IMG/VR virus record: IMGVR_UViG_3300037400_001903
Coordinates: 13,212 to 77,211 of that record
DNA length: 64,000 nt
From: a virus
Lineage: Duplodnaviria > Caudoviricetes
Strand: one strand, 5' to 3'
The position numbers were made by a program, and so were the translations under genes. A model generated the notes under the pieces. It was not told the DNA's origin. It made no database searches and saw nothing but the letters and a program-made list of their open reading frames with translations. Shown in pieces: positions 44,957 through 63,258 of this stretch; within the stretch, counting starts at the first letter, position 1; every line of letters starts with the position of its first letter.

Positions 44957-44964
44957 AAATTCTC

Positions 44965-45921
44965 CTATATTATTTCGTTTATATCTTTACTTAAACTTAT
45001 TTGGCCACATAAAGTGCATTCCTTATGTAGGCATTTCTTAGGCTTATCGATTGGATGAAAGTCCTTTATGTTATGGAACTCCTTGCATTCATCTAAACAG
45101 CCTCTACCTTGGTGTTCATTAACCTCGATATAAACGTAATTATAATCTCTAGTGCAATAATAATCAAGTGAATGAAAACTCATTTTTGTATAATTGTATG
45201 AAGAGGTTATAAACTCATTTCTTGTCATAAATAATTTTTTAGAACCATCTTCATAAGTTATCTTGTATCTTGGCTTTTTAGTTGAACTACTTTGAGCAAT
45301 TAATTTATCTCTAATTTCAATAGGAGCTGTTAGGTCTCTTTCAATAAAATAAGAATAACCATTCTTCTCACATATTTCTATTAGTTTTTTAATATCATCT
45401 TGATTATTGACTCTAGATACACATTCTATTCTTATACCTTTTTGATTTGTAGGTGATTTAATCTTAGAGAACTTTTCGATAAAGTCCTCTAAAGATACAA
45501 ATTCACTATGCCAACTACAAGTAATGCCTATCTCGGAATTATACTGATAACATAACTCGGTTAAGTCATTGTAGTATTCAGAAGACTGTGACATATTAGT
45601 TGTGATATTAATTCGTTTTAATTTATCACCACATTGTTTGTATAATGTCTCAAGTAATAAGTGTAGGTTCATTAACGAAACCTCACCACCAATTAAATCT
45701 AATTTAACATTACCAGGTAACTCGTTGATTATTCTTGCTATCTCTGGTAATGTTTCGTAGATTATATTAAAGTCTAACTTGATTGGTTCATCCCTAAACA
45801 TTAAACAAGTGTATATCTTTCTAACACAATATGAACAATTATAATTACAGCAATCTGTTAATCTCCATTTGATTGTTGACTTACACATACCATTTCGACT
45901 TATTATCGTTTTTATATCCAT
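44965..45921 (-). CDS. Radical SAM protein A (tandem paralog)
   Basis: CNYNCSYC, IGGE, TTNMS, SWHSEF, C-terminal Cys cluster. Confidence 0.9.
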   Translation of the reverse strand: MDIKTIISRNGMCKSTIKWRLTDCCNYNCSYCVRKIYTCLMFRDEPIKLDFNIIYETLPEIARIINELPGNVKLDLIGGEVSLMNLHLLLETLYKQCGDKLKRINITTNMSQSSEYYNDLTELCYQYNSEIGITCSWHSEFVSLEDFIEKFSKIKSPTNQKGIRIECVSRVNNQDDIKKLIEICEKNGYSYFIERDLTAPIEIRDKLIAQSSSTKKPRYKITYEDGSKKLFMTRNEFITSSYNYTKMSFHSLDYYCTRDYNYVYIEVNEHQGRGCLDECKEFHNIKDFHPIDKPKKCLHKECTLCGQISLSKDINEII

Positions 45922-47377: not shown

Positions 47378-50300
47378 TTAAGATTTAACAAATACTGTTT
47401 TTGTGACCACAGTTCCATCTGCCATTGTAAATGTCCAAGTCTCAGAACTTAACTCTTCAACCCAAACATCCATTGTATGGAAATAAGCTTCAAAAGTTGT
47501 ATCCCATTTAATATATAATTGAGCATATATAACTCTTCTAGTTGCACCTAAATTATTAAATGAAGTAATACTAGATTGTGTAGGAAACTCCTCTGATTTA
47601 TAAACAACTCCACTACTATTATCTACAGGAAATCCACTAGCAGAGACTGGTGTTAATAAAACACTTATACCCTTAAAACTAAGTTCTAATTTTGTTTTAT
47701 ATAACTGGTCGTTTGTTCCTGACTCAAAAAAGTCACTAGGTAATCCCATATTAATATCAGAATAATTGTGTTTCTGATTAGGCACCATTGTCGTAGGGTC
47801 TAAATCCTTAAATACATCACACGTTCCAAATACTGGAGTTTCAATACTAAGATTACCACTATCTAAAATAGATTGATTATTTATAGATTTAATGTTAGTT
47901 CCTGAAACTAAGTTAGGTTGTTTAGTATTTAATAACTCATCTATCTTATCTTTACTATATGAAGTTGTCGTAAAGTGTGTTATAGTATATGTTTTATCTA
48001 CCTTATTAATATTAACAACATAAAAATCAGCGTATGTTTGTCCTGCTAGTTGTGGAAAAGATGTAGGGTCATACTCTGCAGCGTTTCCAATAGACACAAA
48101 AGTCAAAGGTGAATTGCCTCCTGCAATTACATTTAAACTCCTATATTTATAACAATAGGTGTAAACATTATTACTATAATAATTAACAATACAATAATCT
48201 TTTTGTGCTTCTGCAAACTGTGCATCAGTTAATGTTCCACTAAAATTTGATAGTTCAATATACCCAATGTTTGCTTTATCAAATTTGCCATTCCAATTAG
48301 TTTTATCTGCTGCTGTTACAAATTTATGTGTAGTAGATGTATCATCAATATCATCAGCATTTAGTGTAACTACACCTGTTTTAGAGTTAACACTTGATAC
48401 AGCATCTGCTGGATGCTCAAGTGGTTTCCAGTTTGAAAGTGTAGATGCAGGAGTACCAGCTAATATATATGTTTTAGATTCATCTGTTCTTATACATATA
48501 TCACCAATTTCAGCAGTTAATGCAAGCATCGCAACCTCTGATGCTGCAGTAAATTTATCATTAACTGCTACAGCTGGTAATACTGATGTATCTAATTTAC
48601 CATTAACATCTAGAATAGGTACGTTACCTGATGATGTTCCTGTGTTACATGCAGCAGCTGTACCTAATGTAGGTTTATTTTGAATGAATGCATCAGAGGA
48701 TGAATTCTTTTCATTCCAATTAGCCTTTACATTTACTTGTGCACCTGCTTCAATACCAGATAGTTTTGTTTTTTCTTCTGTAGTATAAGCAGCAGTTGTT
48801 TCATCTAGTATGTTTTTATTACTATGATTATGTCTATCTAATGTGTTAGCATCTACTTTATCTCTATATGTTCCAGAGAAGTCATATTCTGATAAACCTT
48901 TACCTGTAACTTTATCTACTTTTTCATCAAGTGCTTTATATATTCCATTAGATGTAACAGGATTAGCTGAATCTTTTATAGGTTTTGGGTCAAATGTAAG
49001 ATTGTTTTGTTTTTTTGCTAGTTCTGTATAGACAGCACCTGATTCAACTAAAGAAGTATTTCCACTAGTTACACTAGCTGTTGAATTCTTTACTGCTGCT
49101 GTGCCTAAACCTAGATTTGCTCTAGCATTTCCTTGATTATCTAAACCTAAGTTTTGATTAGCATCATAAGATACTGCATGAATTTGTGCAGTTGTTACTT
49201 CATGTGGGTTATTCTTATTTGCTTTATGATTATTAATATCTGTCTGTGCTGCAGATGCTGCAGATGTATTAGCTTCAACGTGAGCTATTAAAGAAGCATA
49301 CTCAGAATTAGGAGACTCTTTAATATAATTTATAATTTCTGCTAGCGTATCTAGTGTTGAATCTAAAGATGTGTCAGAATCAATACCTAGTGTTGTATTA
49401 ACAACTGTTCTCCATTGTTCGATTGATGCAGTATATGTATTAACTGCATTAGATACAGCAGTATTTACATCAGCTGTAGTTGATTGTTCATAAGCTGCAA
49501 GGCTTTCTGCAATAGCATTGTCTTTAGCTAGTTTATATGCAGATAAATCAGAATCAATAGCAGCGTCTTTAGCATTCCATAGAGCAAGTAATGAGTCCCA
49601 GTACCCTGAAACAGTATTTGCATAAGTTGTATTTACCTTAGTATCCCAAGCTGTGTGGTCTAAAGCTCTTTGTGCCTCAGCATTTTGTCTAGCTGTTTCA
49701 TTAGCTTGACGTTGGTTCTCATTATAAACTCTTGAACCAGATGCAGGTACTGATACAGTATAACCTATACCACCATATTCTGCTGTATTTCTAGCTGCTT
49801 CATTAGATTCTCTTGTAGTTTCATTAGATTGTCTGGTAGTTTCATTAGCTTGGCGAGTGTTCTCTTGAGCCATACGTGTACCTGATGCAGGATTAGCTTT
49901 AGTTCCACCAGTGCTCTTACCATATTCACCATCAATAGCCTCATTAACATCCTCAAGAATACTCTGCTCAAGTAGTGTTTTAGTTATTGAACCAGTTTTA
50001 ATAGCTGCAGATATTGTTCTTTCATGTGTAACATTATCAGCTTGGCTTATTGTTATACTAATAGTTGCAGTATCTTGTGGATTATAAACATCTACTAGAT
50101 TAACCACAGGGATTCTAATTTCAGTTCCTTCTTTAAGTGTTAAAACAATTTCTTTGTTTGTAGAATCATAATAGTTTTTACCAGTACCAGTATCTAATAA
50201 GTACTCTGATGGTAAATCTATTGTTCCTAGAACTGTGTAGACATCATTAGCTTTATCTGTATAATGAACTAATTTGGCTACACCAGTTGTACTATTATAT

Positions 50301-51193
50301 TTTAAATCTAGGTTATCTAGAATAGCTTGTCTTGCATTAGAGTTGGCTGTATCACTAGTAGTAAGCTCAGTTTTAGTAGCATAAGTTGTAGTTATAACAT
50401 TACCTGATGCATCAGCTGTAGCTTTTTTAGCTGTATCTGTTTTAGATGTTTCGAGTAATGCCTCAAGTTGTGCTATTGTTGCAAATGTAGTGTCCACATA
50501 AGCTCTCTCATTAACGATATCTCCTCTAGTTGCAGGAGCTGTATCATTATTTGTCCAAGTATTTCTAGCAGGTCTTTCATTAATATCAATAACTGCATTA
50601 CTTATAACCATTTTATTATTCTTTTTAGATAAGTAATCCTTTAACCAATTTAAAATATCTAAATATAAAGCTGTAGTAACTATTGTATGAGTCTGCAGTT
50701 TACCTTCTTCAACATCATCAACAGTCTTTATGAATTTAGTTACAGAACCAGATTTATGGAAAACATAACCAATACATTGTTCTGCATCAGTATGTACTTC
50801 TATTGTAAAACTATCAGGACCAAATTTTATTTTTGTTCTGTGATTAGGAGACTCAATAAGTTCAGTTATAGCGCCATTAAGTAAGTTTAATGTGTCATTC
50901 ATTTGCTGTGTTCCACTACCATCACCCATAGGTAACTTTTTAGAATCTTCTGTCTTAGTGGCATAAGTCTCTGTTATTATATTTCCATCAGCATCTGCAG
51001 TTGCTTTTTTAACTGTATCATTAGCTTCCTCCATTAAATTCTCATGGAAAGTATCAAATGCTTCTTTATCTGTATTGATTTGGTCAAAAGCATCTTCTAT
51101 TCCTTCTTCGATTTTATTAAGTTTTGATGCAGATATTTCTGTTTCCTCATCTACCCAAACTGTTTTTATATATGGGTTAGCTCTTTTACTCAT
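47378..51193 (-). CDS. Long mosaic tail fibre protein
   Basis: Anchor-like N terminus, coiled-coil RQxNExxR repeats, fibre modules GKGLSEYDF, KTKLSGIEAGAQVNV, DDIDDTSTTHKFVT. Confidence 0.8.
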   Translation of the reverse strand: MSKRANPYIKTVWVDEETEISASKLNKIEEGIEDAFDQINTDKEAFDTFHENLMEEANDTVKKATADADGNIITETYATKTEDSKKLPMGDGSGTQQMNDTLNLLNGAITELIESPNHRTKIKFGPDSFTIEVHTDAEQCIGYVFHKSGSVTKFIKTVDDVEEGKLQTHTIVTTALYLDILNWLKDYLSKKNNKMVISNAVIDINERPARNTWTNNDTAPATRGDIVNERAYVDTTFATIAQLEALLETSKTDTAKKATADASGNVITTTYATKTELTTSDTANSNARQAILDNLDLKYNSTTGVAKLVHYTDKANDVYTVLGTIDLPSEYLLDTGTGKNYYDSTNKEIVLTLKEGTEIRIPVVNLVDVYNPQDTATISITISQADNVTHERTISAAIKTGSITKTLLEQSILEDVNEAIDGEYGKSTGGTKANPASGTRMAQENTRQANETTRQSNETTRESNEAARNTAEYGGIGYTVSVPASGSRVYNENQRQANETARQNAEAQRALDHTAWDTKVNTTYANTVSGYWDSLLALWNAKDAAIDSDLSAYKLAKDNAIAESLAAYEQSTTADVNTAVSNAVNTYTASIEQWRTVVNTTLGIDSDTSLDSTLDTLAEIINYIKESPNSEYASLIAHVEANTSAASAAQTDINNHKANKNNPHEVTTAQIHAVSYDANQNLGLDNQGNARANLGLGTAAVKNSTASVTSGNTSLVESGAVYTELAKKQNNLTFDPKPIKDSANPVTSNGIYKALDEKVDKVTGKGLSEYDFSGTYRDKVDANTLDRHNHSNKNILDETTAAYTTEEKTKLSGIEAGAQVNVKANWNEKNSSSDAFIQNKPTLGTAAACNTGTSSGNVPILDVNGKLDTSVLPAVAVNDKFTAASEVAMLALTAEIGDICIRTDESKTYILAGTPASTLSNWKPLEHPADAVSSVNSKTGVVTLNADDIDDTSTTHKFVTAADKTNWNGKFDKANIGYIELSNFSGTLTDAQFAEAQKDYCIVNYYSNNVYTYCYKYRSLNVIAGGNSPLTFVSIGNAAEYDPTSFPQLAGQTYADFYVVNINKVDKTYTITHFTTTSYSKDKIDELLNTKQPNLVSGTNIKSINNQSILDSGNLSIETPVFGTCDVFKDLDPTTMVPNQKHNYSDINMGLPSDFFESGTNDQLYKTKLELSFKGISVLLTPVSASGFPVDNSSGVVYKSEEFPTQSSITSFNNLGATRRVIYAQLYIKWDTTFEAYFHTMDVWVEELSSETWTFTMADGTVVTKTVFVKS

Positions 51194-52454
51194 TATTTTG
51201 TCCTCCTACTAGTTCATCATAATTAAATGGTCTTAAATCACTGTGAAGTTTAAGCTTCGGTGAGCAGACTATAGTTTTATTAGGCCTGATGCCTATTGTT
51301 TTAGTGTAAGCTTCAGATTTGTATGTGGCATTTATACCATACAATATCCTTTCTGTATCAATTCTAGGATTTGTGTCATCCTGTAGGATGATTACGTTTG
51401 AATCCTCATCTGTTTTTTGACTTAATGTTATGTTATCTCTATTAACTGTGAACATTACAAAGTCAAAGTCTGTATCTGATAAGAATGTATCTATATGTAG
51501 TAAACATTTATAGAATGTATATTCCTCATCCTGTTCTGTATTAGGATTGAAGAGTCTCTTAGTATATTTTATTCTATCAAAGTGTGCATATATAGGTGTA
51601 GAGAAATTTATTTTAACAGCTAGATTGTTAGGATTACTAACAACTGTAGCCTCTTTCTTAACAACTATTTGCCTAATCTTTTTTATACCTTTATTTGTCT
51701 TGATATAACCATAAGCACGCTTAATAAATGGTTTGTATATGTAAGTAATAGATTTAAGTATCTCACCTTTAAGATTTGTTATATAGAGTTCAACAAGTAT
51801 TGGTTTATTATATTCATAACCTGATGTAGATTCTAATAACATTTTTTCTTTAGTTGTAGATTCAATCTGTTCCAAAATATTTCCAGTGCTTATTGATTTA
51901 ATTATCGCAACAGTTTTTAAATTTGAATTGTTATAATTAAAGTCTGACTCTGTCTTATAAGCATAAGTAAAATCAATGTATAATTTATTTAAAGATATAT
52001 TACCACTTGTTGTTGGTTTATTATAGATAACAAGATTTTTTATATCAGGTAACTCTACTGGTTCAGATACTAAATCTAAAGTATCACTTGACCATAGAGC
52101 TCTTGTATATAAATCTTCAACATTTGCTAGAATAAGATAACATTTTCTATACCACCTATCTTTTTGCATAGGCGATTTATTATCATTTGTTATGTCTATT
52201 GTTATTCTTGTCTCTTTATAACCATTAACATTAACATTTAATAGATTTGTTTCATAAGCATTTATGCTATCAATCCAATAAGCTGTGTTATCTATTAAAT
52301 ATTTTTCTTCACTATTAACATCATATAAATAAAACCTTACACCTGTTGGTTTATCAGTCGTTGCACTTGCAAAAAAGAGACAAGTAATTGTTGCTGTAGA
52401 ACCAACAACAGATATGTCAGTTATTTTGCAATCAGTATTTGTCCCTTTAATCAT
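51186..52454 (-). CDS. Putative tail/baseplate protein
   Basis: 422 aa, beta-rich, within the tail operon. Confidence 0.5.
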   Translation of the reverse strand: MIKGTNTDCKITDISVVGSTATITCLFFASATTDKPTGVRFYLYDVNSEEKYLIDNTAYWIDSINAYETNLLNVNVNGYKETRITIDITNDNKSPMQKDRWYRKCYLILANVEDLYTRALWSSDTLDLVSEPVELPDIKNLVIYNKPTTSGNISLNKLYIDFTYAYKTESDFNYNNSNLKTVAIIKSISTGNILEQIESTTKEKMLLESTSGYEYNKPILVELYITNLKGEILKSITYIYKPFIKRAYGYIKTNKGIKKIRQIVVKKEATVVSNPNNLAVKINFSTPIYAHFDRIKYTKRLFNPNTEQDEEYTFYKCLLHIDTFLSDTDFDFVMFTVNRDNITLSQKTDEDSNVIILQDDTNPRIDTERILYGINATYKSEAYTKTIGIRPNKTIVCSPKLKLHSDLRPFNYDELVGGQNNE

Positions 52455-52456
52455 TG

Positions 52457-53083
52457 TTATTCATCCTCCACCTGTACGTAAATAGTTCCATTAGGTTTAG
52501 TTGCTAATGCCTCTTCAGGGTCTGCAGTACCGTAGCTTATCTTATCTTTAAGTTTATCAACTCTTTCAATTATATTTGATAAGTCACCAACAGTTGCTAG
52601 TCTGACTGAAGTTAAAGAGTTCTCACCTACTGTAGGTATGTCTAAGAACTTAGCATTAGTAGCTGTTAAGTTTGAGATTTGAATTGAATTGTATGATGGT
52701 GAGTTTACTAATATAACTGTATTTGTATTACCTTTAGCGAATCTAAATGTACACATTCTGTAAGCAATTATATCACCAACATCTGCTGGTCTAGTATTAC
52801 CATCATTTGTTTCTATTATAATATCAAATTTTAAATCTTGATAAGTAGGAGTGTCATCCAAAGAGCTTGTTGGAACTTTAATAACAAGCTTATTTCTACC
52901 TGCAATACTTGATTGTGTTGGCACAAAGAATATTAAACAATCAGATGGTAGGAAAGAAAATTTATAAATTAAATTAAACTCTCTTAAATGCTCATCTGTT
53001 GTTGGTGTATAAGATGCTTGTGTATATACCTTAGGAAAATAAGGCAGCATTTCCAATAATAAGTCTTCAATAGGTTTATCCAT
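52457..53083 (-). CDS. Putative tail-associated protein
   Basis: C-terminal ISYGTADP...PNGTIYVQ motif typical of phage fibre/baseplate ends. Confidence 0.5.
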   Translation of the reverse strand: MDKPIEDLLLEMLPYFPKVYTQASYTPTTDEHLREFNLIYKFSFLPSDCLIFFVPTQSSIAGRNKLVIKVPTSSLDDTPTYQDLKFDIIIETNDGNTRPADVGDIIAYRMCTFRFAKGNTNTVILVNSPSYNSIQISNLTATNAKFLDIPTVGENSLTSVRLATVGDLSNIIERVDKLKDKISYGTADPEEALATKPNGTIYVQVEDE

Positions 53084-54038
53084 TTTGTGTCACTCCTTCT
53101 GGTAATAATTTTATTTCAGTTTGTTTAGCTGCTTCCTGTTTAACCCATTTATCATATTCCATTAAAACACCTTTTCTAAATCTTGCATCATGAAGAGTTA
53201 TCTTATTAGCATGCTTTTTAGCATACATAGTTGAACTCCACATATTGATGACAAGAGTGAAACATTTAATGGCTAATGACATGAATGCAGCTTTGTTAAA
53301 TACTATAGCATCGAATAAGATACTTGATAAAATAAATGTAAAGCCAAATGATAAGAATAATTTAGGTACTCTATATCTAATTATTTGAGCATTCTCATGT
53401 TTCTCAACAAATTCATTTGGTCCTGCATCTTCATCTTCTGAATAATACTCAGATAATAAAGTGCTTATTGTAACTCTATCATACTTGACAGGCTCTGTGT
53501 CAATGATTCTTTCAATCAATTCCTCATCAAGTTGTTCTTCATACATCTTTCTTTTTCTACAATATTCACTGTTTTCTTTTTGTTCTTCAGTGCCTTTGTT
53601 CCAAAGATGCATTTCCTCTTCTTTATATCTTAACTTTTTAATTTGGAAGAAGAATAAATTTATAGTTATATAATCTAGCTTAGCTAGCTTTAGCCCAACC
53701 AAGAATTTATATTGAGCTATCTTTCTTTTCTTATTGAATACTGCTAAGAACTTTAAGATTATGGATGGTATATTAGTTTCGCCAGCAGCAAAATTATCTA
53801 TGTATTCTATGCATGTCTTATATTCAGCATTGTTTTCTTTAAACCAATCTAGATATAAATAGACTGAGCCCAATGTAACGAATATAATTGCAGCATCTGT
53901 TATTAATTGTTCAATATAGAAGTAGCCATCCTTAAGCATTTCCCATCCTATATTAGCAGTGAATAATGTAGCACCACCTACTAATAAGAAAGACAATAAG
54001 AACATAGCTACTATTTGTAATCTTTCAATTATCTTCAT
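53076..54038 (-). CDS. Multi-pass membrane protein
   Basis: Two N-terminal and two C-terminal hydrophobic helices around a soluble domain. Confidence 0.7.
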   Translation of the reverse strand: MKIIERLQIVAMFLLSFLLVGGATLFTANIGWEMLKDGYFYIEQLITDAAIIFVTLGSVYLYLDWFKENNAEYKTCIEYIDNFAAGETNIPSIILKFLAVFNKKRKIAQYKFLVGLKLAKLDYITINLFFFQIKKLRYKEEEMHLWNKGTEEQKENSEYCRKRKMYEEQLDEELIERIIDTEPVKYDRVTISTLLSEYYSEDEDAGPNEFVEKHENAQIIRYRVPKLFLSFGFTFILSSILFDAIVFNKAAFMSLAIKCFTLVINMWSSTMYAKKHANKITLHDARFRKGVLMEYDKWVKQEAAKQTEIKLLPEGVTQNG

Positions 54039-54041
54039 AAA

Positions 54042-54611
54042 TTATTTTCCCATCTCTTCTTTAATTATTTCTCTTATGTCTTCTAGTTGTTCAGCATTAG
54101 TTTCTCTAGTTTCTTGCTTTCTTAACTCTCTCTTGATTAAGAAGTCATACTTCTTCTCAATAGGTAGAATTACAACGTAACCTAATACTTGACATACAGA
54201 TGTTAAGCATAGACATAATAAAAATTTTTGAAGTGTTTTTAATAAAGCATCCATTTCTTCTTTGGCTAGTTTAAACCAATTAGGTAATTTCATAGCTAGT
54301 ATAACACATAATACTATAATGATTATTGACCAAATATTTTTACCTATACCAAGTAAGATATATTTTAGATTACTATACTCCCAAGAATTTACCCAATTCT
54401 TAAGTTCTTCTTTAAATCTTCTACATAATACATAGGCAACTATTATAAATATAATAGATATTTTAACGATTGTTTTTGTTTTCATAAACTGATAATTACA
54501 ACCCCAAATAACGCATGGTATTACTAGGGTTGTAAGAAAAAATAGTATTCTATACATCAGTCTAAATCTTTTTTCTTTTTTAATATTGGCTTTTGTATAA
54601 GTAGCTGCCAT
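54042..54611 (-). CDS. Four-helix membrane protein
   Basis: Four hydrophobic segments and a charged C terminus. Confidence 0.7.
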   Translation of the reverse strand: MAATYTKANIKKEKRFRLMYRILFFLTTLVIPCVIWGCNYQFMKTKTIVKISIIFIIVAYVLCRRFKEELKNWVNSWEYSNLKYILLGIGKNIWSIIIIVLCVILAMKLPNWFKLAKEEMDALLKTLQKFLLCLCLTSVCQVLGYVVILPIEKKYDFLIKRELRKQETRETNAEQLEDIREIIKEEMGK

Positions 54612-54622
54612 AATAGCACCTC

Positions 54623-55120
54623 CTATACTGTTAATTTATCAATAGCATTCTGTGCAGTTTCACTAGCTATATTAAGAACTTCATTTATGTTCTCAGTTTT
54701 TTCTTTAAGTTCTTGTTTAATTGTACCTAAATCAGTGTTAGTACCCTCTTCAATCTTTTCAACTAATTTAATTACAGGCTTAGCTAAATCAAGCTCACCT
54801 TGTTCTTTTAATTGATTAGATAAAGTAACAAGTTCCTTCTTTGTATCAGAAGAGATTGTATTTGAACTTAAGTAGGCAGTAACTACAATGTCTCCTAATG
54901 TAGCACATGCTTGTCTAAGTTTCTTGTTGTCTTCTGTTAATTTACTTACAGATTTTTCAGTAGCAGTAAGTTCTCTATTTGCATTAATAAGTTTCTTAGT
55001 TGCTCTCCATTCTGTGAAAGTCTTAACTACTGCGAATATACCTACGCATATAGTGAAAACTTTATCTAAGGTAATACTTCCACCGAATACTACATCAATA
55101 AAATCTTTTAAGTTATCCAT
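54623..55120 (-). CDS. Single-pass membrane coiled-coil protein (holin-like candidate)
   Basis: VFTICVGIFAVV then coiled coil. Confidence 0.5.
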   Translation of the reverse strand: MDNLKDFIDVVFGGSITLDKVFTICVGIFAVVKTFTEWRATKKLINANRELTATEKSVSKLTEDNKKLRQACATLGDIVVTAYLSSNTISSDTKKELVTLSNQLKEQGELDLAKPVIKLVEKIEEGTNTDLGTIKQELKEKTENINEVLNIASETAQNAIDKLTV

Positions 55121-55131
55121 TGTTCTGCCTC

Positions 55132-55884
55132 CTAAATTATTCCATCATTAAGGTGTCTTTGAAGTTGTAATTTAATATCAGATACTTCATCTTGCAAGTC
55201 TTTTAATATATCACCTTGAGTTTTAAGTGAACTATTCAAAGCCCTTACTGCATCAGAAATGTCAGATATTACTTCTGAAACATACTTCATTTGATTATAT
55301 TTTATCATAGAAGCATCTAAATTGATAGAACTATTTATAGCTTTTTGTCCGTTAACTTCTTTAACTACATCAACGAAAGGATATACAGCTACGAAATTAC
55401 CGTTGTCATCAATAGCTTGTAACATCATTCCTTTCTTTATGTAATCTTTATTTAAGATTGTTGGTGACTCTATCACATGACTTTTAACTAAATGATTTAA
55501 TATAGATTCTAATGAAGTAATCTTTTTATAAAGTTGCTTGATTGAATCAGACTGTGTCTTCTTTAAATCGAATGTTATTTTCTCAAGATTAAAATTAAAC
55601 TTAATAAGATTTGTTTCTTGAGTGTTGTCACTATCAACTAATATTAATTTGAATGTAGAATCTATAAGATATTGCTTAACATCTTCTGTTAATGATAACT
55701 TAGATGTATAAATATTATCTTTAGAATTCACAAATTCAATAACTATTGATGAACCATTAGTTAATAATAATTCTCCAAACACCAATGTAGTTGGAGCTAC
55801 ATCAGTGTCTAGATAAATTATTTGATTTGCTGAGGTGATTGAATCACCAAGATATTTTAATAAATTATTTTTATATTCTAGCAT
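55132..55884 (-). CDS. Putative tail/baseplate protein
   Basis: Beta-rich N terminus plus coiled coil; GAGGTG RBS. Confidence 0.5.
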   Translation of the reverse strand: MLEYKNNLLKYLGDSITSANQIIYLDTDVAPTTLVFGELLLTNGSSIVIEFVNSKDNIYTSKLSLTEDVKQYLIDSTFKLILVDSDNTQETNLIKFNFNLEKITFDLKKTQSDSIKQLYKKITSLESILNHLVKSHVIESPTILNKDYIKKGMMLQAIDDNGNFVAVYPFVDVVKEVNGQKAINSSINLDASMIKYNQMKYVSEVISDISDAVRALNSSLKTQGDILKDLQDEVSDIKLQLQRHLNDGII

Positions 55885-55896
55885 TTTAATCACCTC

Positions 55897-56496
55897 TTAT
55901 TCTAATATTAAAAGTGTTACACTACTTGCATCATAATATAATTTTGTTGGTTGAATAATAATATTTTCTGCATTAGTATCGAAGGCTAATATTTTATGAC
56001 AATCTAATATTAAAGTATTAGAATCAATTTTAGCTTTTATATCTATTGATACAGCTGTTGTATTAGTATTTTTTTGTGATGCATAAGTTGACCCAAACAC
56101 TTGACTTACAGTTACAGAAGTATTATTAATAGGTACTGAATAAAATAGTTCTGTATGAGTATCATTTTGAAAATATAATCTTAGTGTGCCATTTATAAAT
56201 AGAGGCACATAAGTATATTCAGGCAAATCTAAAGATATTTTTAAAATATCAGCAGTATAGTATTTATTACCATTTAATGCATTACCAGTCTCCCAAACTT
56301 TTATTTTTTTAGATGCTTGAGACAACGGTAATGAAAATGACTTTAGAGTTTTTAAATTATTAGCTATATTAGATTCTATATTATCTTGAATATTATCAGA
56401 AGATATATATGTATAATCATTTTGGTTTGCTTTAGAACAACCAATTAATAGAAATAATAAAGCTATAGTAATTATAGATAAAAGTATTTTTTTCAT
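55897..56496 (-). CDS. Lipoprotein carrying a copy of the collagen fibre C-terminal domain
   Basis: GGAGG RBS, MKKILLSIITIALLFLLIG-C lipobox; WETGN.LNG, PL..NG.LR.YFQN and ILAFDTNAE are shared with the upstream fibre tip. Confidence 0.85.
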   Translation of the reverse strand: MKKILLSIITIALLFLLIGCSKANQNDYTYISSDNIQDNIESNIANNLKTLKSFSLPLSQASKKIKVWETGNALNGNKYYTADILKISLDLPEYTYVPLFINGTLRLYFQNDTHTELFYSVPINNTSVTVSQVFGSTYASQKNTNTTAVSIDIKAKIDSNTLILDCHKILAFDTNAENIIIQPTKLYYDASSVTLLILE

Positions 56497-56509
56497 AAGC
56501 CCTCCTATT

Positions 56510-59500
56510 TTAATTTGGTAATAAAAATGTGATATAACTAGGGTCAAAATATATACTTGATACAGGTATTTGTGTATCTTCTGCATTAGTATCAAAAGCA
56601 AGTATGTCGCCACAATTCATTGTTAATGTACCATTTACATAGCTAGCTGATATATTTATAGATACTGAGAAAGTATTAACACTACCATACGGATTATTTG
56701 TTGAAGATAATGTTTGACTTAATGTTACAGAATGCGAAGCTGGTCCAGATGGTATACAATAAGCAATTCTGGCACAAACCTCATTTTGAAAATAAACTCT
56801 TAACATACCATTTACATATAAAGGAACTCCTGCATCTCTTTCAGAAGATGAACCACCGAAAGAAGTTGTTGATTTTGAAGATGCAGTATAACACTTGTAC
56901 CCATTTAATGAATTACCAGTTTCCCAAGCACTAGAAGCACTACTTATTCCATATACAGCATAACTTTTTATTGTTAACTTAGATAAGCCAGGGTCACCCT
57001 TAGGGCCTTGTGAACCTGGGTCACCTTTATCACCCTTATCACCCTTATCACCTTTATCACCTTTGGCTCCATTAGTACCATTAGTACCGTTTGTTCCTGG
57101 GTCACCTTTAGCACCTTTAATGTTACACTCTTCTGTCCAAGATGTCCCACCTTGGCATCTGTAAATTTTATAAGAGTTAGTATCTAAATACATATCGTTT
57201 CTATTTGCCGAAACTCTTGTATCAGGATTACCTTGACCAGTCTGCCATGTATTACCATCAGCACCATTTTGCCCATGCTCTATTTCAAATGCTTGAGCTT
57301 GTGATGTTCCATCATCAAATAATAAATTATAAACATTCTTAGTATCATCTGATTCTGTTAAATTTTTTTCTACTCTTAAGATACTTTTACCTGGAGTTCC
57401 ATCTTGACCTCTAGCAAGAATATCTGTTTTAGCATCATTTATATACCAATAACCATCTACACCTATTGTTACATCATCTTTAGCTTTAACACCAGTTGAT
57501 GTTGAGCCTATATACCATTCGCCAGACTCTTGGTCGATATGTGGTGTAGTACCATCAGAACCAGGAGCTCCTTGTATATTGTAAAGTTTTAATTGATATG
57601 TGTCATCTTGTCCTGTAACAGGGTCAAGAATACCATACATAGTTTGACTGTTACTATCTGGCTCAACTAATACTTGTGGAGCAAGTGAAGGTGCTGGACC
57701 TGTTTCTCCTGTTTCACCTTTAGGACCTCTTAATCCACCAAATGTAAATGTAAATTTTTTATTTGTATTTGTACCACTTGCAACAACAGTAGCTGTTGGA
57801 TTATTATCTGCTATTGTAGTATCATAAGAACACGCTGGAGTATCAAAGCCTGCTGCAGTTCCTGTAGGTCCTTTAAATAAATTTGTGTTTACAAGATTCG
57901 CCCAAGAGTCTGCATTTGTTACATCTGAAGCATCGCTTTCAGCCCAGGCATATTGTATAAATCCAGTTGTGCTGTTATATCTTAAGAAAACTTTATCTCC
58001 TTTAGGACCACGAATTTGAGCACCAGTTGTAAATTGGTCGTTACCACTTGTTGCTACTCTTATACAAATTTCACCATTAGCATTTATATAAGCATCACCA
58101 ACTTCTGTTGCTTCGCTCTGATTTGTTTTTATTTTAACAGATGTTCCAGCAGGACCTTGTGGGCCAGTTGGACCTTGTGGACCGATAGGACCTTGAGGTA
58201 ATGTAAATGTCTGTGTAGTTGCATCACTAAATACAATTAACAACTCTGTCTCACCAGTAAGAAGATATGAAGGTCTAATTTCTACAATAGATTTGCCAAC
58301 ATCACCACGGTCACCCTTATCTCCTTTTGGACCTTGAGGGCCCTGTGAACCTGTATCTCCTTTAGGACCTTTTATGTCACCAATGTATTTGAATATACAG
58401 CCTTCTGTTCTTTTTTCTATACATGTAACAACTTTACCTGTATCACCGATTAAATAACAATAGCCTACTTCTGCTGAAGACATAACTTGTAAACCATTAG
58501 GGTCATTATATAAAATACCAGTATTGTTAGCAGCTATAGCCCACATACCAGATAAGCCTGTGTAAAGAGTACCACGTATAACACCTGATTCACCAGTGTC
58601 ACCTTTAGGTCCTCTTGCTCCATCTTCTCCTGGCTCTCCCTTTTCACCACGTAATGTTGTGTTTTTTAATGGAGCTAGGTCAAAAGTATATGTGTTTTTA
58701 TTATCTAATACATGACCATCAGTTGAATTAAACTCAGCCTGTATAGGTTCATTTGTGTCTGAGTATTTTAATAGTATTGTAGGTACAGGTCCTGGTTCAC
58801 CTTTCTCTCCTTTTGGCCCAGTAATTTTAGCTTCTTGATTTGTTGATGGAATCTCTTCTGAGAATGTAAGATAAAGGCCATCTTCTTTTTGAACTACTTT
58901 AGGATAGTATGTAATACCTTGTGCTTGATACCAAGTATAAGGTCTAGCATTTATAGTAGCTTGGTCTTCATCATCATAATAAACTTTAATACCAAAGAAT
59001 CTTTTATTTGCATTAGCATCAGTAACCATATTCTTTCCTTGAAGATTATCAGCAAATGCAAATGTAAGTCTAGGCGTTTTACCAGATACACCGTTGTTTC
59101 CTTGAATTCCTTGTGGACCTCTTTGACCTACTGCACCAGTTTCGCCTTTAACTCCAGGCACTCCCTGAGGACCTTGAATTCCTTGAGGACCTCTAGCTTG
59201 TTCTTTAGTATGATAGATTATTTTATCATTAGTAATAATTCCCCAGTAGTAACCAGATACACCTGTGAATGTATGCATCTCTTCAGTGTCTCTACCAGGT
59301 GTTTCATCTGTCCAATAATAAGATTCACCATTAGTTAAATAGCTAATAGTTACAGAAGATGCTGATGAGATTATAGGTTGGTTGCCAACTGTATCATTAA
59401 CAAACTCACCTCTAAGTTGTAGATATGTTTGAAGCATCTCAGGTAGTTCTGGCAATGCTTCTAGAGCAGATGTGTACTTTTCTTCAAGTTGACCTACTCT

Positions 59501-59644
59501 TGCATCAAACTCAGAGATTTTATTTGTAGATTCGCTCTTATCAAGTTCAGCTTGTCTGTGCTCATCACGTAAAGCTGTGAGCTCATCAATTAATTCATTT
59601 AATATCTCACTTGTTATTTCTTGACCATGTCTTAATTTTTTCAT
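56510..59644 (-). CDS. Collagen-like tail fibre / receptor-binding protein
   Basis: Multiple interrupted Gly-X-Y runs (GPQGPKGDKGD) and a globular C-terminal domain. Confidence 0.85.
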   Translation of the reverse strand: MKKLRHGQEITSEILNELIDELTALRDEHRQAELDKSESTNKISEFDARVGQLEEKYTSALEALPELPEMLQTYLQLRGEFVNDTVGNQPIISSASSVTISYLTNGESYYWTDETPGRDTEEMHTFTGVSGYYWGIITNDKIIYHTKEQARGPQGIQGPQGVPGVKGETGAVGQRGPQGIQGNNGVSGKTPRLTFAFADNLQGKNMVTDANANKRFFGIKVYYDDEDQATINARPYTWYQAQGITYYPKVVQKEDGLYLTFSEEIPSTNQEAKITGPKGEKGEPGPVPTILLKYSDTNEPIQAEFNSTDGHVLDNKNTYTFDLAPLKNTTLRGEKGEPGEDGARGPKGDTGESGVIRGTLYTGLSGMWAIAANNTGILYNDPNGLQVMSSAEVGYCYLIGDTGKVVTCIEKRTEGCIFKYIGDIKGPKGDTGSQGPQGPKGDKGDRGDVGKSIVEIRPSYLLTGETELLIVFSDATTQTFTLPQGPIGPQGPTGPQGPAGTSVKIKTNQSEATEVGDAYINANGEICIRVATSGNDQFTTGAQIRGPKGDKVFLRYNSTTGFIQYAWAESDASDVTNADSWANLVNTNLFKGPTGTAAGFDTPACSYDTTIADNNPTATVVASGTNTNKKFTFTFGGLRGPKGETGETGPAPSLAPQVLVEPDSNSQTMYGILDPVTGQDDTYQLKLYNIQGAPGSDGTTPHIDQESGEWYIGSTSTGVKAKDDVTIGVDGYWYINDAKTDILARGQDGTPGKSILRVEKNLTESDDTKNVYNLLFDDGTSQAQAFEIEHGQNGADGNTWQTGQGNPDTRVSANRNDMYLDTNSYKIYRCQGGTSWTEECNIKGAKGDPGTNGTNGTNGAKGDKGDKGDKGDKGDPGSQGPKGDPGLSKLTIKSYAVYGISSASSAWETGNSLNGYKCYTASSKSTTSFGGSSSERDAGVPLYVNGMLRVYFQNEVCARIAYCIPSGPASHSVTLSQTLSSTNNPYGSVNTFSVSINISASYVNGTLTMNCGDILAFDTNAEDTQIPVSSIYFDPSYITFLLPN

Positions 59645-59645
59645 T

Positions 59646-62558
59646 TTAATTAACCTCCTCTGGTCTGATTATATTTGTATAGAAATTATATGGGTCACTA
59701 TCTGGAATGTCTATTGCCTCATAATTATAAGTTATACTCGAGAAAGAGAAACGTCCTTTATTCTCAGCTGTTATTGTTGACTCTGCAAGTAGACAAGGAA
59801 ACTTATTAACTACTGTAAATAATTTAGTATCTTGTATTGTTGAATCCAATCTTATATTTTCCTTAGATACTTTGTCCCCTTCTTTAAATATACGTAAATC
59901 ATTTATACTAAACAATTTATTTTTACTATTGTATATAATATGCCCAGCTTCATTTCTAGTAACTAGATTAAAATCAACTTTAGAATGCTGATTTCTATGA
60001 TAATAAACTAGGATGCTAGATATTATTTTATATATCTTAGCGTATTCTAGTTCTTCACCTTTTAATTTTATAGTACATGGAACTACCTCATCCAAATCTT
60101 CATAGGTATCTTCATTGAAGCTTACTAATATATTATTATATAAGAATAAACTCTTACCTTTAAAGTAGATTACATTCTCTGAATTAAAGTATTTTGATTC
60201 ATCCCTTAACCACGGCATAGTAGTTGTTCCATCTTCTAATTGATTAGACATATTGAAATACATTTTAATTCTTATAGCTGGTCGTTCTTGTACTAAATTA
60301 TTACTATTATCAATAGAGAATTTCTCTTTCCATAATAAAGCGTAGTAATCATTAGTTACTTCTGATATACAGCTATTATCATCCCAAGGTATTTCTACAT
60401 CTGAATTCTTATTAAGAACTCTAGTATTACATTGTGTAACTTTAATTACATCATTAGATAAATCTGATGCATTAATATAATAAAGCTTTTTGAAATATTT
60501 AAAGATTAAGATATTATCACATACTTGTATTGTATCAGCATTATCTGATGAAACTGTAGAATTAATTGTACGTCTTTGGTATGGTGAGTAGTAACCAGAT
60601 TGGTCATCATAATCATCACCATTTCCTGATACGATATGGATACTTCCACCAACATTATCTGCATTAGCGAAACAAATAATATTACCTTGGAAAGGTATAG
60701 CTTTTATTAAAGCTTCATTCTTTGTTGTCTTAAATGATAAGCAACCCCTATCTGTAACATAACCAGGATTGTTTAATATAGTTTTGAACCATTTACCTGT
60801 ATTATAATTGTCACCATAATAAAGAAGCTTATTACCATCTACTAATATCTTTGTACAAGATTGAACTATATTAAAGTCATCACTTATAGTTAGGTCTTTC
60901 CACAATACACTAGTAGCTTGACCAAAATATTCACCATCAACTTTATCTATTTTATAATCATAGATTGTTGTATATTTTTCTACGCCATCATTAGCATCTG
61001 TATAAGCATAATTGACTTCCTCATAATCTAAATAAGGTTCCCATAAAGTTGTAGAATCTTTCATAAGAGAAAATATATTATTGGTATAAGCAGAAGCATC
61101 ATGTCCACTTACGCATCTATAAACTATATTATTATAAAGTGTTAAATCACCTGCAGAAAATACGCTTTTATTAGCAAGATTCCATTCAGGTACAACTACA
61201 TTAGGTGTCTCAAATGACCTAGCAAATGTAACACGGTATTGAACAGTATCAGCATCTGTTACTTCTATAGATGTATAAGAAGTTTGTGATGATAATCCAA
61301 TAGTCCTTTGATAATTAGGGTCTTGTATTTTAAATGACACAATAGTGTACCAAACATCATTAATACATTTTTCCCATCTAAACCAATAGTTCCTTATATT
61401 GTCACCAACCTGTATATTAAATATAGGTTCTAATAAATAAGTACCAAATAGAGTTTTTCTAATAACTATTCTACCTATTGATGTTGTTACTGTATCTTCT
61501 TGAGAACCTACAGCTAATTCAGGATAAGGACTCATATAATTATAACCTATGTTTGTTATCTCTGAGTTGTTACAGATATGAGGTTCTAGTACATTAGCAA
61601 CTAATTTATTATACTCGACAGATATTGTTATGATTCTTGTACCAGTCATAACATATAGTTTATTGTTAAATGTAGCAGCTTCAATCTTTCTAGAATTCTG
61701 GAATGTTAATGTACTGAAGAAAGAATAATTTGTATTAAAAGAAGAACTCTTTAAAAATAAGGATGTATCTTCTAAGGAACTATATCTGTTATAATGATTA
61801 TCTATACATTTATATAACTTGTTGTTGTATGAAACAACTGTGTCAACTTCCCATCTTGCTATTTTAGTAATCTCCCAGTTAATTGGTGTTCCTTCATAAG
61901 AATCTATTTCTTCCCAGTATTCTTCATTTGTTGGTAGGATTATTGTTTTCTCAAAAGGAACTAAACATACATACTTTACTGTGTATAATCCTTCAATCTC
62001 CTCAAAATAATCACCACGTTCAATCATTCCTGATAAGACTGTATCCCAAGCGTCTCTTTTATTTAATAGAAGTTCAGCCCCAGTGATATCATTCTTTATA
62101 TAGTCTTGAATGAAACCATCATGTTTATCTGGAACTATATCTGTTTTTTGAAGTGTAGTTAATCCTTCGAATACATTTGTCTCATTATATTTTTTAATTG
62201 AGTAGTCTGTTAATTTATAAATATTAAGACGAGATAATTTAATTGTAGTGTTCTCGTTGAAGACAGATTGGTAAAGCTTACCATCAGCAGCAATTATGAT
62301 GTAAGTTATTCTATATGTAAATAAGAAAATACCCTGTATATTTTTAATGTCTTCATCACATGTAATTTTACAAATCTCTTTAGCACCTTTACGTTTAACT
62401 AAAGCACCAGATAAAAATGTCATATTAACACAATCACGCATCTCATTCTTTAATAGATGCTCGTTACTTGGGTCAGTGTTAATACCTCCAGTAAAATCAT
62501 TATATGTTGCAGGTTCATTATAAGTATAAACAGGATAATCTTTATATTTAGTAGGCAT
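59646..62558 (-). CDS. Podoviral tail tube/nozzle (P22 gp10 / T7 gp12-like) protein
   Basis: DFTGGINT...NEMRDCVN...GALVKRKG N-terminal pattern; about 970 aa after a gp11-like adaptor gene. Confidence 0.7.
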   Translation of the reverse strand: MPTKYKDYPVYTYNEPATYNDFTGGINTDPSNEHLLKNEMRDCVNMTFLSGALVKRKGAKEICKITCDEDIKNIQGIFLFTYRITYIIIAADGKLYQSVFNENTTIKLSRLNIYKLTDYSIKKYNETNVFEGLTTLQKTDIVPDKHDGFIQDYIKNDITGAELLLNKRDAWDTVLSGMIERGDYFEEIEGLYTVKYVCLVPFEKTIILPTNEEYWEEIDSYEGTPINWEITKIARWEVDTVVSYNNKLYKCIDNHYNRYSSLEDTSLFLKSSSFNTNYSFFSTLTFQNSRKIEAATFNNKLYVMTGTRIITISVEYNKLVANVLEPHICNNSEITNIGYNYMSPYPELAVGSQEDTVTTSIGRIVIRKTLFGTYLLEPIFNIQVGDNIRNYWFRWEKCINDVWYTIVSFKIQDPNYQRTIGLSSQTSYTSIEVTDADTVQYRVTFARSFETPNVVVPEWNLANKSVFSAGDLTLYNNIVYRCVSGHDASAYTNNIFSLMKDSTTLWEPYLDYEEVNYAYTDANDGVEKYTTIYDYKIDKVDGEYFGQATSVLWKDLTISDDFNIVQSCTKILVDGNKLLYYGDNYNTGKWFKTILNNPGYVTDRGCLSFKTTKNEALIKAIPFQGNIICFANADNVGGSIHIVSGNGDDYDDQSGYYSPYQRRTINSTVSSDNADTIQVCDNILIFKYFKKLYYINASDLSNDVIKVTQCNTRVLNKNSDVEIPWDDNSCISEVTNDYYALLWKEKFSIDNSNNLVQERPAIRIKMYFNMSNQLEDGTTTMPWLRDESKYFNSENVIYFKGKSLFLYNNILVSFNEDTYEDLDEVVPCTIKLKGEELEYAKIYKIISSILVYYHRNQHSKVDFNLVTRNEAGHIIYNSKNKLFSINDLRIFKEGDKVSKENIRLDSTIQDTKLFTVVNKFPCLLAESTITAENKGRFSFSSITYNYEAIDIPDSDPYNFYTNIIRPEEVN

Positions 62559-62559
62559 A

Positions 62560-63258
62560 CTAATCATCCTCCTCTATCTTAATAACTGCATCTTCTTCAT
62601 TGAATTCATCTTCATAAGATAATTCATGAACAATATCTTCTACATAATACTTGTAATTAGATAGAGCTAGGTTAATCTTATCAGAATCTTTAAGCACTCT
62701 AGCTGTATAGAAATAAGCTGCATAAAGTACTAAGGCATCCTCAAACTCTGGTCGTATGTCTAATTCTATGCTCTTAAGTTGGTCAGAATCATTTGGGTCT
62801 AAAGGCATTTCAGGAGCATAAAGCTTTTGATAATAACCAAAAGAAAGTTCCTGAAGATTTAAACCAAATGTAGTGTTCCATTCAATATATAACTTATCAT
62901 TTAGAATATAATAAACTGCTTCCCAATCATCAACCTTACTCCTGAATTTACCGTTTTTAAATAAGCATTGGATACGTTTATCTGTTAATGGTACACGAGT
63001 TGCTACTGTTGCATTATCAGTTAAATATAATCTAAGATAATTTATTTTTCTAATATCTTTAGGAAGGTCAAGGCACATCCAATTTAAGTCTTGCTCAACA
63101 TTTTCAAAATCAGATAAATGTAATTCCTTAAATAATTTATAACCACGGCTTGTTAAGTCTGCCATGCAGTTAGAAATACAAGCTCTTAAAGATGGAAGGT
63201 CAATAACATCTAACCCAGTTGTTCCTATTATTCTTAAGTATAAATCGTATAGTGTCAT
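62560..63258 (-). CDS. Head-tail adaptor (tail tubular protein A-like)
   Basis: MTLYDLYLRI start, FEDALVLYAAY helix near the C terminus; position between capsid and nozzle genes. Confidence 0.6.
   Translation of the reverse strand: MTLYDLYLRIIGTTGLDVIDLPSLRACISNCMADLTSRGYKLFKELHLSDFENVEQDLNWMCLDLPKDIRKINYLRLYLTDNATVATRVPLTDKRIQCLFKNGKFRSKVDDWEAVYYILNDKLYIEWNTTFGLNLQELSFGYYQKLYAPEMPLDPNDSDQLKSIELDIRPEFEDALVLYAAYFYTARVLKDSDKINLALSNYKYYVEDIVHELSYEDEFNEEDAVIKIEEDD

What the first reader, a model, noticed from the sequence alone, without database searches (positions are those of the whole stretch)
55897..56960. Membrane-anchored copy of the phage's own receptor-binding tip: a candidate receptor-masking lipoprotein
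Seen: the 199 aa gene right after the collagen fibre has a lipobox (LIG-C20), and its body is a paralog of the fibre C-terminal about 140 aa (WETGNALNG/WETGNSLNG; VPLFINGTLRLYFQN/VPLYVNGMLRVYFQN; ILAFDTNAEN/ILAFDTNAED), with similarity still visible in the DNA. Established: T5-like phages encode receptor-blocking lipoproteins beside the RBP gene, but those are not RBP copies. Inference: superinfection exclusion or progeny protection by displaying a duplicated tip domain that occupies the receptor. I do not know this design to have been described.
Basis: partly seen in the sequence, partly recalled or inferred. Interest (0 to 1): 0.82.

Follow-up and report, generated by a model that had tools for sequence, protein, structure and literature searches.

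The report
Membrane-anchored copy of phage fibre tip
A rumen phage carries, right after its collagen-like tail-fibre gene, a gene for an exported membrane lipoprotein whose body is a copy of that fibre's own tip. A related phage with a different tip has its own matching lipoprotein, which suggests a so far undescribed way for a phage to occupy its own receptor.

Summary
Gene 55897-56496 (-) encodes a 199-aa protein with the only lipobox on the 77-kb contig (L17-I18-G19-C20). Its residues 50-197 are 41% identical (E 6e-28) to the last 155 residues of the 1044-aa collagen-like fibre encoded 13 nt upstream.

No other homologue of this domain exists among 1.84 billion representative proteins. A relative of the phage (L005 and three variants) has an unrelated fibre tip followed, 14 nt later, by a 161-aa lipoprotein that is 50% identical (E 1e-33) to that tip.

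Tip and lipoprotein are exchanged as one cassette: L005 and L003 are 95% and 91% identical on either side of it. The lipoprotein body is under purifying selection (dN/dS 0.14-0.20). The lipobox is kept despite substitutions. About eight other tip types in the lineage have no such gene.

Export rules out a chaperone role. Occupation of the phage's own receptor (exclusion, or protection of progeny) is the best reading, but it is untested. The host and its envelope type are unknown.

I found no paper describing this design. Unchecked notes of this scan report similar designs on other DNA (Spiroplasma and Firmicutes prophages, a high-GC myovirus).

The parts
56510..59644 (-). Collagen-like tail-fibre gene (1044 aa, P0002). 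The N-terminal ~250 aa are shared with relatives; the distal part varies.
   Evidence: Pfam Collagen E 9e-18 in 5 stretches. PHROG tail-fibre families. N-terminus conserved with L003/L005 fibres.
56513..56974 (-). Fibre tip domain (residues 891-1044), directly after the last collagen stretch. It is the source of the duplicated module.
   Evidence: BLASTP 41% over 155 aa, E 6e-28. Alignment A1. Only two copies in the genome.
56497..56509 (-). 13-nt spacer between the fibre stop and the lipoprotein start, holding the Shine-Dalgarno AGGAGG (56501-56506). No terminator between the genes; the two genes are in different frames.
   Evidence: No terminator-like site between the genes, and promoter-like sites are not enriched.
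55897..56496 (-). Lipoprotein gene (199 aa, P0001).
   Evidence: Only lipobox ORF on the contig. One hydrophobic segment at residues 3-21.
56437..56496 (-). Signal peptide with lipobox: MKK, hydrophobic core, L17-I18-G19-C20.
   Evidence: The equivalent lipobox in four type-B orthologues varies (LVSC, LTSC, LASC, LAGC) but stays within the consensus.
56350..56436 (-). Polar N/S/D/Q-rich linker (residues 21-49), without similarity to the fibre.
   Evidence: The modelled domain begins at residue ~50.
55900..56349 (-). Lipoprotein body (residues 50-199): copy of the fibre tip, modelled as a 10-strand all-beta domain.
   Evidence: AlphaFold2 pLDDT 80, pTM 0.75. Best structural matches are C-terminal domains of phage receptor-binding proteins and tailspikes, Z 5.5-7.0.
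55132..55893 (-). Conserved 253-aa gene. In most relatives it follows the fibre directly, so it marks the right edge of the variable cassette.

Best explanation
The 199-aa gene encodes an exported, lipid-anchored protein. Its signal peptide ends in a lipobox, a ~30-residue polar tether follows, and the rest is a beta-sandwich domain derived by duplication from the distal (specificity) domain of the phage's own collagen-like tail fibre. It is most likely co-transcribed with the fibre late in infection.

I propose that the domain, displayed on the outer face of the cytoplasmic membrane, binds the same envelope ligand as the fibre tip. This would occupy the receptor on the infected cell and on its debris or vesicles. 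Fewer incoming phages of the same specificity would adsorb, and fewer new virions would be lost on dead cell material. This is the job T5 Llp does, but done by direct competition with a copy of the binding domain, as in retroviral Env receptor interference.

Because tip and lipoprotein travel as one cassette, a change of tip brings its matching blocker.

Shown here: the paralogy, the lipobox, the second independent pair, the cassette linkage and the purifying selection. Inferred: lipidation, receptor binding and the effect on adsorption.
For: 1. Paralogy of 41% over 155 aa, E 6e-28. The lipobox is unique on the contig, and there is a strong SD 13 nt after the fibre stop.
2. A second pair exists with an unrelated domain. 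L005 lipoprotein P0004 residues 40-161 match its fibre P0003 residues 426-546 at 50%, E 1e-33. P0004 and P0001 bodies are unrelated, E 1.7.
3. All four type-B variants, plus three further contigs known only from gene tables, keep fibre then lipoprotein with a 14-nt gap in the four sequenced variants.
4. Cassette: L005 and L003 are 94.7% identical up to the collagen/tip junction and 90.5% identical from the end of the lipoprotein gene, with no similarity in between.
5. Selection: the lipoprotein body has dN/dS 0.14-0.20, and the lipobox Cys is invariant while positions -3 to -1 change within the consensus.
6. The tip is the specificity-like part. It has the highest dN/dS in the fibre (0.37-0.69 against 0.16-0.29), about ten tip types sit on a conserved N-terminus, and the fold is closest to C-terminal domains of phage K/phi812 receptor-binding protein and of tailspikes (Z 6-7).
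7. Direction of the duplication: the type-B lipoprotein linker keeps a decayed remnant of the last collagen repeats (QKGDKGETGSDA in the fibre, QKVNSYDTTSDA in the lipoprotein).
8. Lipobox ORFs occur in none of the loci of relatives whose fibre lacks a matching copy.
9. Precedent for receptor-targeting lipoproteins next to the receptor-binding-protein gene: T5 Llp (PMC9586334).
Against: - No experiment exists. Lipidation and binding are inferred.
- The paralogues are only 41-57% identical. Within type B the lipoprotein is more conserved than the tip and is no closer to its own genome's tip than to other genomes' tips. It therefore does not track the tip's fine-scale changes and may have drifted to another ligand.
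- About eight of ten tip types in the lineage have no such gene, so it is an accessory.
- It lies in the late structural operon with no convincing promoter of its own. That fits protection of progeny better than early exclusion.
- The host is unknown. In a thick-walled monoderm a domain tethered ~30 residues from the membrane may not reach a wall-surface receptor.
- The fold match is only Z 6-7, which the tool calls middling.
Confidence: 0.5

Rival explanations
1. The lipoprotein keeps the tip's binding specificity but uses it for something other than blocking adsorption. Examples: tethering or organising an envelope polymer to help lysis or virion release, marking the infected cell, or clumping cells.
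For: The same facts as for the main reading: matched pairs, cassette linkage and purifying selection. It lies in the late operon, directly upstream of three conserved membrane proteins of unknown role.
Against: The protein has no second domain and no enzymatic motif. The membrane-protein genes are present in all relatives whether or not the lipoprotein is there, so they do not depend on it.
Confidence: 0.2
2. After the duplication the domain took on a new function. It is a stable exported scaffold that now binds a different target, for example the receptor of competing phages or a host-surface or gut ligand, and is linked to the tip only by history and position.
For: dN between paralogues is high (0.36-0.50, dN/dS 0.6-1.0) while dS is similar to that between orthologues, suggesting fast change after duplication. 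The lipoprotein then evolves more slowly than the tip. Type-B lipoproteins carry a conserved CVCG motif that the tips lack.
Against: Two unrelated tip types each carry their own copy, and the tip-plus-lipoprotein block moves as a unit. If the target had nothing to do with the tip, a single lipoprotein type would be expected to serve any tip.
Confidence: 0.17
3. It is a fibre assembly factor (chaperone), or a spare tip cassette for host-range switching by recombination or read-through.
For: The position immediately after the fibre gene is where tail-fibre chaperones usually lie. Presence depends on the tip type.
Against: A signal peptide with a conserved lipobox puts the domain outside the cytoplasm, away from fibre assembly. 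There is no match to chaperone families. The gene has its own SD and ATG, and the two pairs sit in different frames relative to their fibres. DNA identity is too low for homologous exchange. The N-terminal signal and linker are conserved among orthologues.
Confidence: 0.05
4. It is a non-functional leftover of a duplication or recombination event at a variable junction.
For: The junction is a hot spot. One relative (L028) carries an unrelated 202-aa cytoplasmic gene there.
Against: dN/dS is 0.14-0.20 across four variants with intact frames. The SD and lipobox are conserved. The design recurs with an unrelated domain.
Confidence: 0.03

Closest known systems
T5 Llp and the Cor lipoproteins of T1/phi80-like phages (superinfection-exclusion lipoproteins; FhuA-Llp structure, PMC9586334)
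   Same: A phage-encoded lipoprotein next to the receptor-binding-protein gene. The proposed role is to inactivate the phage's own receptor.
   Different: Llp and Cor are small proteins unrelated to the receptor-binding protein. They sit in the periplasm of a diderm host and act allosterically on a TonB-dependent transporter. Here the body is a copy of the fibre tip, which implies direct competition. There is no sequence match to any known family, the gene sits in a late operon, and the SD usage points to a Bacillota-like host.
Retroviral Env-mediated receptor interference (for example endogenous env genes such as Fv4; from my own knowledge; the general topic is reviewed in PMC6361761, listed but not read)
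   Same: The infected cell makes a membrane-bound copy of the virus's own receptor-binding module, which occupies the receptor.
   Different: That is a eukaryotic system using the same gene product as the virion. Here a separate duplicated gene has a lipid anchor. Function is untested.
Ltp of Streptococcus thermophilus phage TP-J34 (Gram-positive superinfection-exclusion lipoprotein; from my own knowledge)
   Same: A phage lipoprotein anchored on the outer face of the cytoplasmic membrane of a low-GC host, acting at entry.
   Different: Ltp is prophage-expressed, helical, blocks DNA injection, and is not derived from a fibre.
C-terminal domains of phage K gp144 / phi812 receptor-binding protein and of Acinetobacter and Klebsiella tailspikes (PDB 5m9f, 9euf, 5w5p, 7xy1)
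   Same: Best structural matches of the modelled domain. All are distal beta-sandwich domains of phage adsorption proteins.
   Different: Z is only 5.9-7.0 at 5-10% identity, so this may be a common beta-sandwich arrangement. None of these is known as a separate lipoprotein.

Membership tests
Bacterial lipoprotein (SPase II substrate, lipobox) | Positively charged n-region, 7-22-residue hydrophobic core, then [LVI][ASTVI][GAS]C within the first ~35 residues | tested here: met
   MKK, 14 hydrophobic residues, L-I-G-C20. The type-B orthologues have LVSC, LTSC, LASC or LAGC with an invariant Cys.
Bacterial lipoprotein (SPase II substrate, lipobox) | Actual diacylglycerol modification and cleavage by signal peptidase II | not testable with these tools
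   Needs globomycin or palmitate labelling in the host.
Llp / Cor superinfection-exclusion lipoproteins | Sequence membership in the Llp/Cor families | tested here: not met
   No Pfam, PHROG, NCBIfam or PADLOC match above noise. The body is instead homologous to the fibre tip.
Llp / Cor superinfection-exclusion lipoproteins | Blocks adsorption of the cognate phage by binding its receptor | not testable with these tools
   Requires host, phage and adsorption assays.
Tail-fibre assembly chaperones (Tfa, gp38-type and similar) | Cytoplasmic protein encoded after the fibre gene, with a match to chaperone families | tested here: not met
   The export signal places the domain outside the cytoplasm. 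No family match.
Collagen-like phage tail fibre (for the upstream gene) | Gly-X-Y triple-helix repeats, conserved N-terminal attachment region and variable C-terminal globular tip, inside a tail module | tested here: met
   Pfam Collagen E 9e-18. PHROG tail-fibre families. N-terminus conserved and tips swapped among relatives.
Diversity-generating retroelement target proteins (Mtd-like tips, DGR lipoproteins) | Reverse transcriptase plus template and variable repeats that differ at adenines | tested here: not met
   No RVT_1 in the 77-kb contig or in the 76-kb relative; both records are incomplete. Differences between the two copies are spread over all bases.

The most novel reading that the evidence does not exclude
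Phages of this lineage build receptor blockers by duplicating whichever fibre tip they carry and hanging the copy on the host membrane by a lipid anchor. Tip and blocker then move between genomes as one cassette, so a host-range switch automatically brings its matching self-exclusion or progeny-protection factor. This would be a bacterial-virus counterpart of retroviral Env receptor interference. Together with similar, unchecked cases noted elsewhere in this scan, it could be a general and undescribed class of exclusion proteins.
Probability: 0.45. Interest if true: 0.85.

Novelty: new variant of a known kind. Interest (0 to 1): 0.72.

Why it matters
If the reading holds, the binding module of a phage is reused as its own receptor blocker. 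That is a simple, evolvable route to superinfection exclusion or progeny protection that needs no new fold, and it has not been described for phages as far as my searches show.

Such pairs would be practical markers. A lipoprotein that copies a fibre domain identifies that domain as the receptor-binding part in uncultured phages. The soluble body could serve as a probe for the unknown receptor and host.

The cassette linkage also bears on how host-range modules spread in gut viromes.

Tried and rejected
- Homologue searches for the type-A domain found only the query itself: word-index search, full HMMER against 1.84 billion representatives with profile A1, tblastn against 50,697 phage records, IMG/VR pattern scan, PDB sequence search.
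- The ESM Atlas gave only low-score leads.
- Foldseek against PDB found nothing at E<=0.001. BFVD matches were weak, TM <=0.43.
- The AlphaFold2 model of the type-B lipoprotein was poor (pLDDT 56), so I did not search with it.
- Sequencing runs: no RNA holder was listed. Contigs from four other ruminant-gut runs gave only fragments.
- Host identification failed. GroEL and the 973-aa protein found no relatives in 185,579 species genomes.
- Six peptidoglycan-hydrolase Pfam families were not found in the two 76-77-kb records, both of which are incomplete.
- A further IMG/VR scan with the fibre N-terminus found only the same relative.
- DGR idea: no reverse transcriptase.
- Read-through or frameshift fusion with the fibre is rejected, because the frames differ between the two pairs.
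- Literature searches found no description of a lipoprotein copied from a receptor-binding-protein tip. A keyword search cannot prove absence.
Full report
**Setting.** The window is bases 13212-77211 of a 77,211-bp IMG/VR virus record, estimated 71% complete, from a bovine gut metagenome.
- GC is about 30%.
- It encodes DNA polymerase, primase, helicase and GroEL, and a 5,870-aa protein.
- SD-like motifs precede 61 of 65 crude gene calls, 26 of them the full AGGAGG. This points to a Bacillota-like host rather than Bacteroidota.
- I could not identify the host.

**The observation.**
- The fibre gene is 56510-59644 (-), 1044 aa, with five Pfam Collagen stretches and PHROG tail-fibre matches.
- Thirteen bases after its stop, and just downstream of AGGAGG, an ATG at 56496 opens a 199-aa frame.
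- The product starts MKK, followed by 14 hydrophobic residues and L-I-G-C20. A lipobox pattern run over all ORFs of the contig finds only this one.
- Residues 50-197 align with fibre residues 891-1042 at 41% identity over 155 positions, E 6e-28 (alignment). Similarity is still visible in the DNA.
- A profile of the two copies finds exactly these two places in the genome.

**The domain.**
- The profile has no other match among 1.84 billion representative proteins, nor in the phage, IMG/VR or PDB sequence searches.
- AlphaFold2 on the two-sequence alignment gives a confident 10-strand all-beta domain (pLDDT 80, pTM 0.75).
- Foldseek finds nothing clear in the PDB.
- The exhaustive VIA-align search ranks these first: the C-terminal domain of a phi812 baseplate chain (Z 7.0), the C-terminal domains of phage K gp144 (Z 6.6), and the C-terminal domains of Acinetobacter and Klebsiella tailspikes and fibres (Z 5.5-6.1).
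- These Z values are middling. The concentration of distal domains of phage adsorption proteins at the top of the list is still consistent with a tip or head domain.

**Relatives and the key result.** I found related phages using the conserved 973-aa protein encoded upstream of the fibre. I found more using the conserved ~250-aa protein downstream.
- All keep the order: 232-aa gene, ~976-aa gene, fibre, ~250-aa gene, 165-aa, ~190-aa and ~315-aa membrane proteins, and so on.
- The fibres share an N-terminal ~250 residues and then diverge into about ten unrelated C-terminal tip types.
- In L005 (72% identity in the 976-aa protein) the 546-aa fibre is followed, 14 nt later and after AAGGAGG, by a 161-aa ORF starting MKKLILKTIGAITIALMSLTTLVSC.
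- Its residues 40-161 are 50% identical to the last 121 residues of its own fibre, E 1e-33.
- The L005 lipoprotein body has no similarity to the window's lipoprotein body (E 1.7).
- So two unrelated tip domains each have a lipoprotein copy of themselves in the same genomic slot.

**The type-B lipoprotein is maintained.** It has three further variants, 80-88% identical.
- In every contig it follows a fibre with the type-B tip, with a 14-nt gap wherever DNA was available.
- The lipobox changes (LVSC, LTSC, LASC, LAGC) but never leaves the consensus, and the Cys is invariant.
- Lipoproteins and tips form separate groups: lipoprotein-lipoprotein 80-92% identity, tip-tip 67-88%, tip-lipoprotein 45-57%. 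This indicates one duplication before these variants split, with no gene conversion since.

| Region (type-B variants) | dN/dS (Nei-Gojobori) |
|---|---|
| Lipoprotein body | 0.14-0.20 |
| Lipoprotein signal + linker | 0.31-0.69 |
| Fibre tip | 0.37-0.69 |
| Fibre N-terminus | 0.16-0.25 |
| Fibre middle | 0.18-0.29 |

- The lipoprotein is thus a selected gene, and the tip is the fastest-changing part of the fibre.
- The type-B linker still shows a decayed remnant of the fibre's last collagen repeats. The copy therefore went from fibre to lipoprotein.

**Cassette.** L005 and L003 are 94.7% identical over 14.2 kb up to L005:14211, which is the collagen/tip junction. They are 90.5% identical from L005:15075, the end of the lipoprotein gene. 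There is no similarity in between.
- L003 has a third tip type and no lipoprotein. Its fibre stop is 11 nt from the 250-aa gene, and no second copy of its tip exists in its 76-kb record.
- Tip and lipoprotein are therefore gained or lost together.

**Survey of the junction between the fibre and the ~250-aa gene.**

| Tip type | Loci | Gene between fibre and ~250-aa gene |
|---|---|---|
| Type A | window | Matching lipoprotein |
| Type B | L005, L017, L020, L021 | Matching lipoprotein |
| Type C | L003, L025, L029 | None |
| Seven unique tips | L006, L013, L026, L027, L030, L031, L032 | None |
| Unique tip | L028 | Unrelated 202-aa protein without signal peptide |

- Lipobox ORFs occur in none of the loci without a pair.
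- The lipoprotein is therefore an accessory, tip-linked gene, not a core part of fibre assembly.

**Mechanism.**
- The signal peptide and lipobox put the domain on the outer face of the cytoplasmic membrane, so it cannot meet the fibre during cytoplasmic assembly. That removes the chaperone reading.
- A silent spare-tip cassette does not fit either: the gene has its own SD and ATG, a conserved signal peptide, and a frame relative to the fibre that differs between the two pairs.
- The protein has no second domain and no match in Pfam, PHROGs, NCBIfam or PADLOC. Binding is the only activity its architecture suggests.
- The simplest target is what the parent domain binds. I therefore favour occupation of the phage's own receptor on the infected cell and its remains.
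- The gene appears co-transcribed with the fibre: there is no terminator between them and no convincing promoter of its own, while a near-consensus promoter-like site lies just upstream of the fibre gene at 59685-59713. Protection of progeny from adsorbing to debris is thus at least as likely as classical exclusion.
- T5 Llp is the functional precedent, but it is a small, unrelated, periplasmic protein that acts allosterically (PMC9586334). In logic the closer analogue is retroviral Env receptor interference (my own knowledge).

**Caveats.**
- Nothing here shows lipidation, binding or a phenotype.
- The paralogues have diverged to 41-57% identity, and the lipoprotein does not follow the tip's fine-scale evolution. 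A shift to another ligand is possible.
- The host envelope is unknown. No match to six peptidoglycan-hydrolase families was found in two 76-77-kb records, but both records are incomplete, so this settles nothing.
- The complex predictor was closed, so I could not test whether the body trimerises like a fibre tip.

**Novelty.** Six full-text searches found no paper describing a phage lipoprotein derived from its own receptor-binding tip.
- Unchecked notes of this scan report comparable designs on other DNA: membrane-tethered tail-tip copies in a Firmicutes prophage, Spiroplasma prophages and a high-GC myovirus. I did not test these, and they are not independent evidence.
- I file this as a new variant of a known kind, namely phage receptor-directed exclusion lipoproteins. 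The novel features are that the blocker is a copy of the binding module and that it is inherited with it as one cassette.

Noticed in passing
window 53076-55893 (-): The fibre/lipoprotein is followed by four genes that are conserved in order in the relatives surveyed: a 253-aa protein with no predicted TM segment, a 165-aa protein with one N-terminal TM segment, a 189-aa protein with four TM segments and a 320-aa protein with three. They sit in the middle of the tail module and match no family in Pfam or NCBIfam. Their role (lysis, injection, envelope) is unknown.
   Followed up: partly
L028:5400-6008: In one distant relative the slot between the fibre and the ~250-aa gene holds an unrelated 202-aa protein without a signal peptide (P0022; by eye it has a G-S...D-x-D nucleotidyltransferase-like motif, but no NCBIfam or PADLOC match; not scanned against Pfam). 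This junction is therefore a hot spot for accessory genes.
   Followed up: partly
whole contig G000 and relative G001: No match to Amidase_2, Amidase_3, GH25, CHAP, Peptidase_M23 or NlpC/P60 in either 76-77-kb record (71-76% complete). Either the lysin lies in the missing part or is divergent, or the host lacks a wall. The host is unidentified.
   Followed up: partly
whole contig: 61 of 65 crude gene calls are preceded by an SD-like motif, 26 of them the full AGGAGG. This phage also encodes a 5,870-aa protein (genome 6327-23939, -) that earlier notes of the scan relate to crAss-like virion RNA polymerases. That would make it a phage with a crAss-like giant protein on a host that uses SD sequences, so apparently not Bacteroidota.
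   Followed up: partly
window 47378-51193 (-) versus L003:19332-22508: The window has a second long fibre-like protein (1271 aa). In the 72% relative the corresponding region holds several shorter genes (353, 120, 152 and 428 aa). This is a second variable adsorption module in the lineage.
   Followed up: no
L005:14596-15081 and orthologues (P0004-P0007): All type-B lipoproteins carry a conserved C-V-C-G motif in addition to the Cys they share with the tips (DSC). The fibre tips lack this motif. It may be a disulfide adaptation of the exported copy.
   Followed up: no
window 52000-63000: Short contigs identical to the window occur in a second bovine-gut study; one spans the fibre/lipoprotein junction at 56456-56622. 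Fragments at about 90-98% identity occur in a goat-gut run and two unlabelled runs. A 23-kb contig of a relative (about 83% identical) covers the 973-aa gene.
   Followed up: partly
window 43982-45921 (-): Two tandem ~320-aa proteins with weak Radical_SAM matches lie directly after the tail genes. An earlier first-stage note of the scan also saw them.
   Followed up: no
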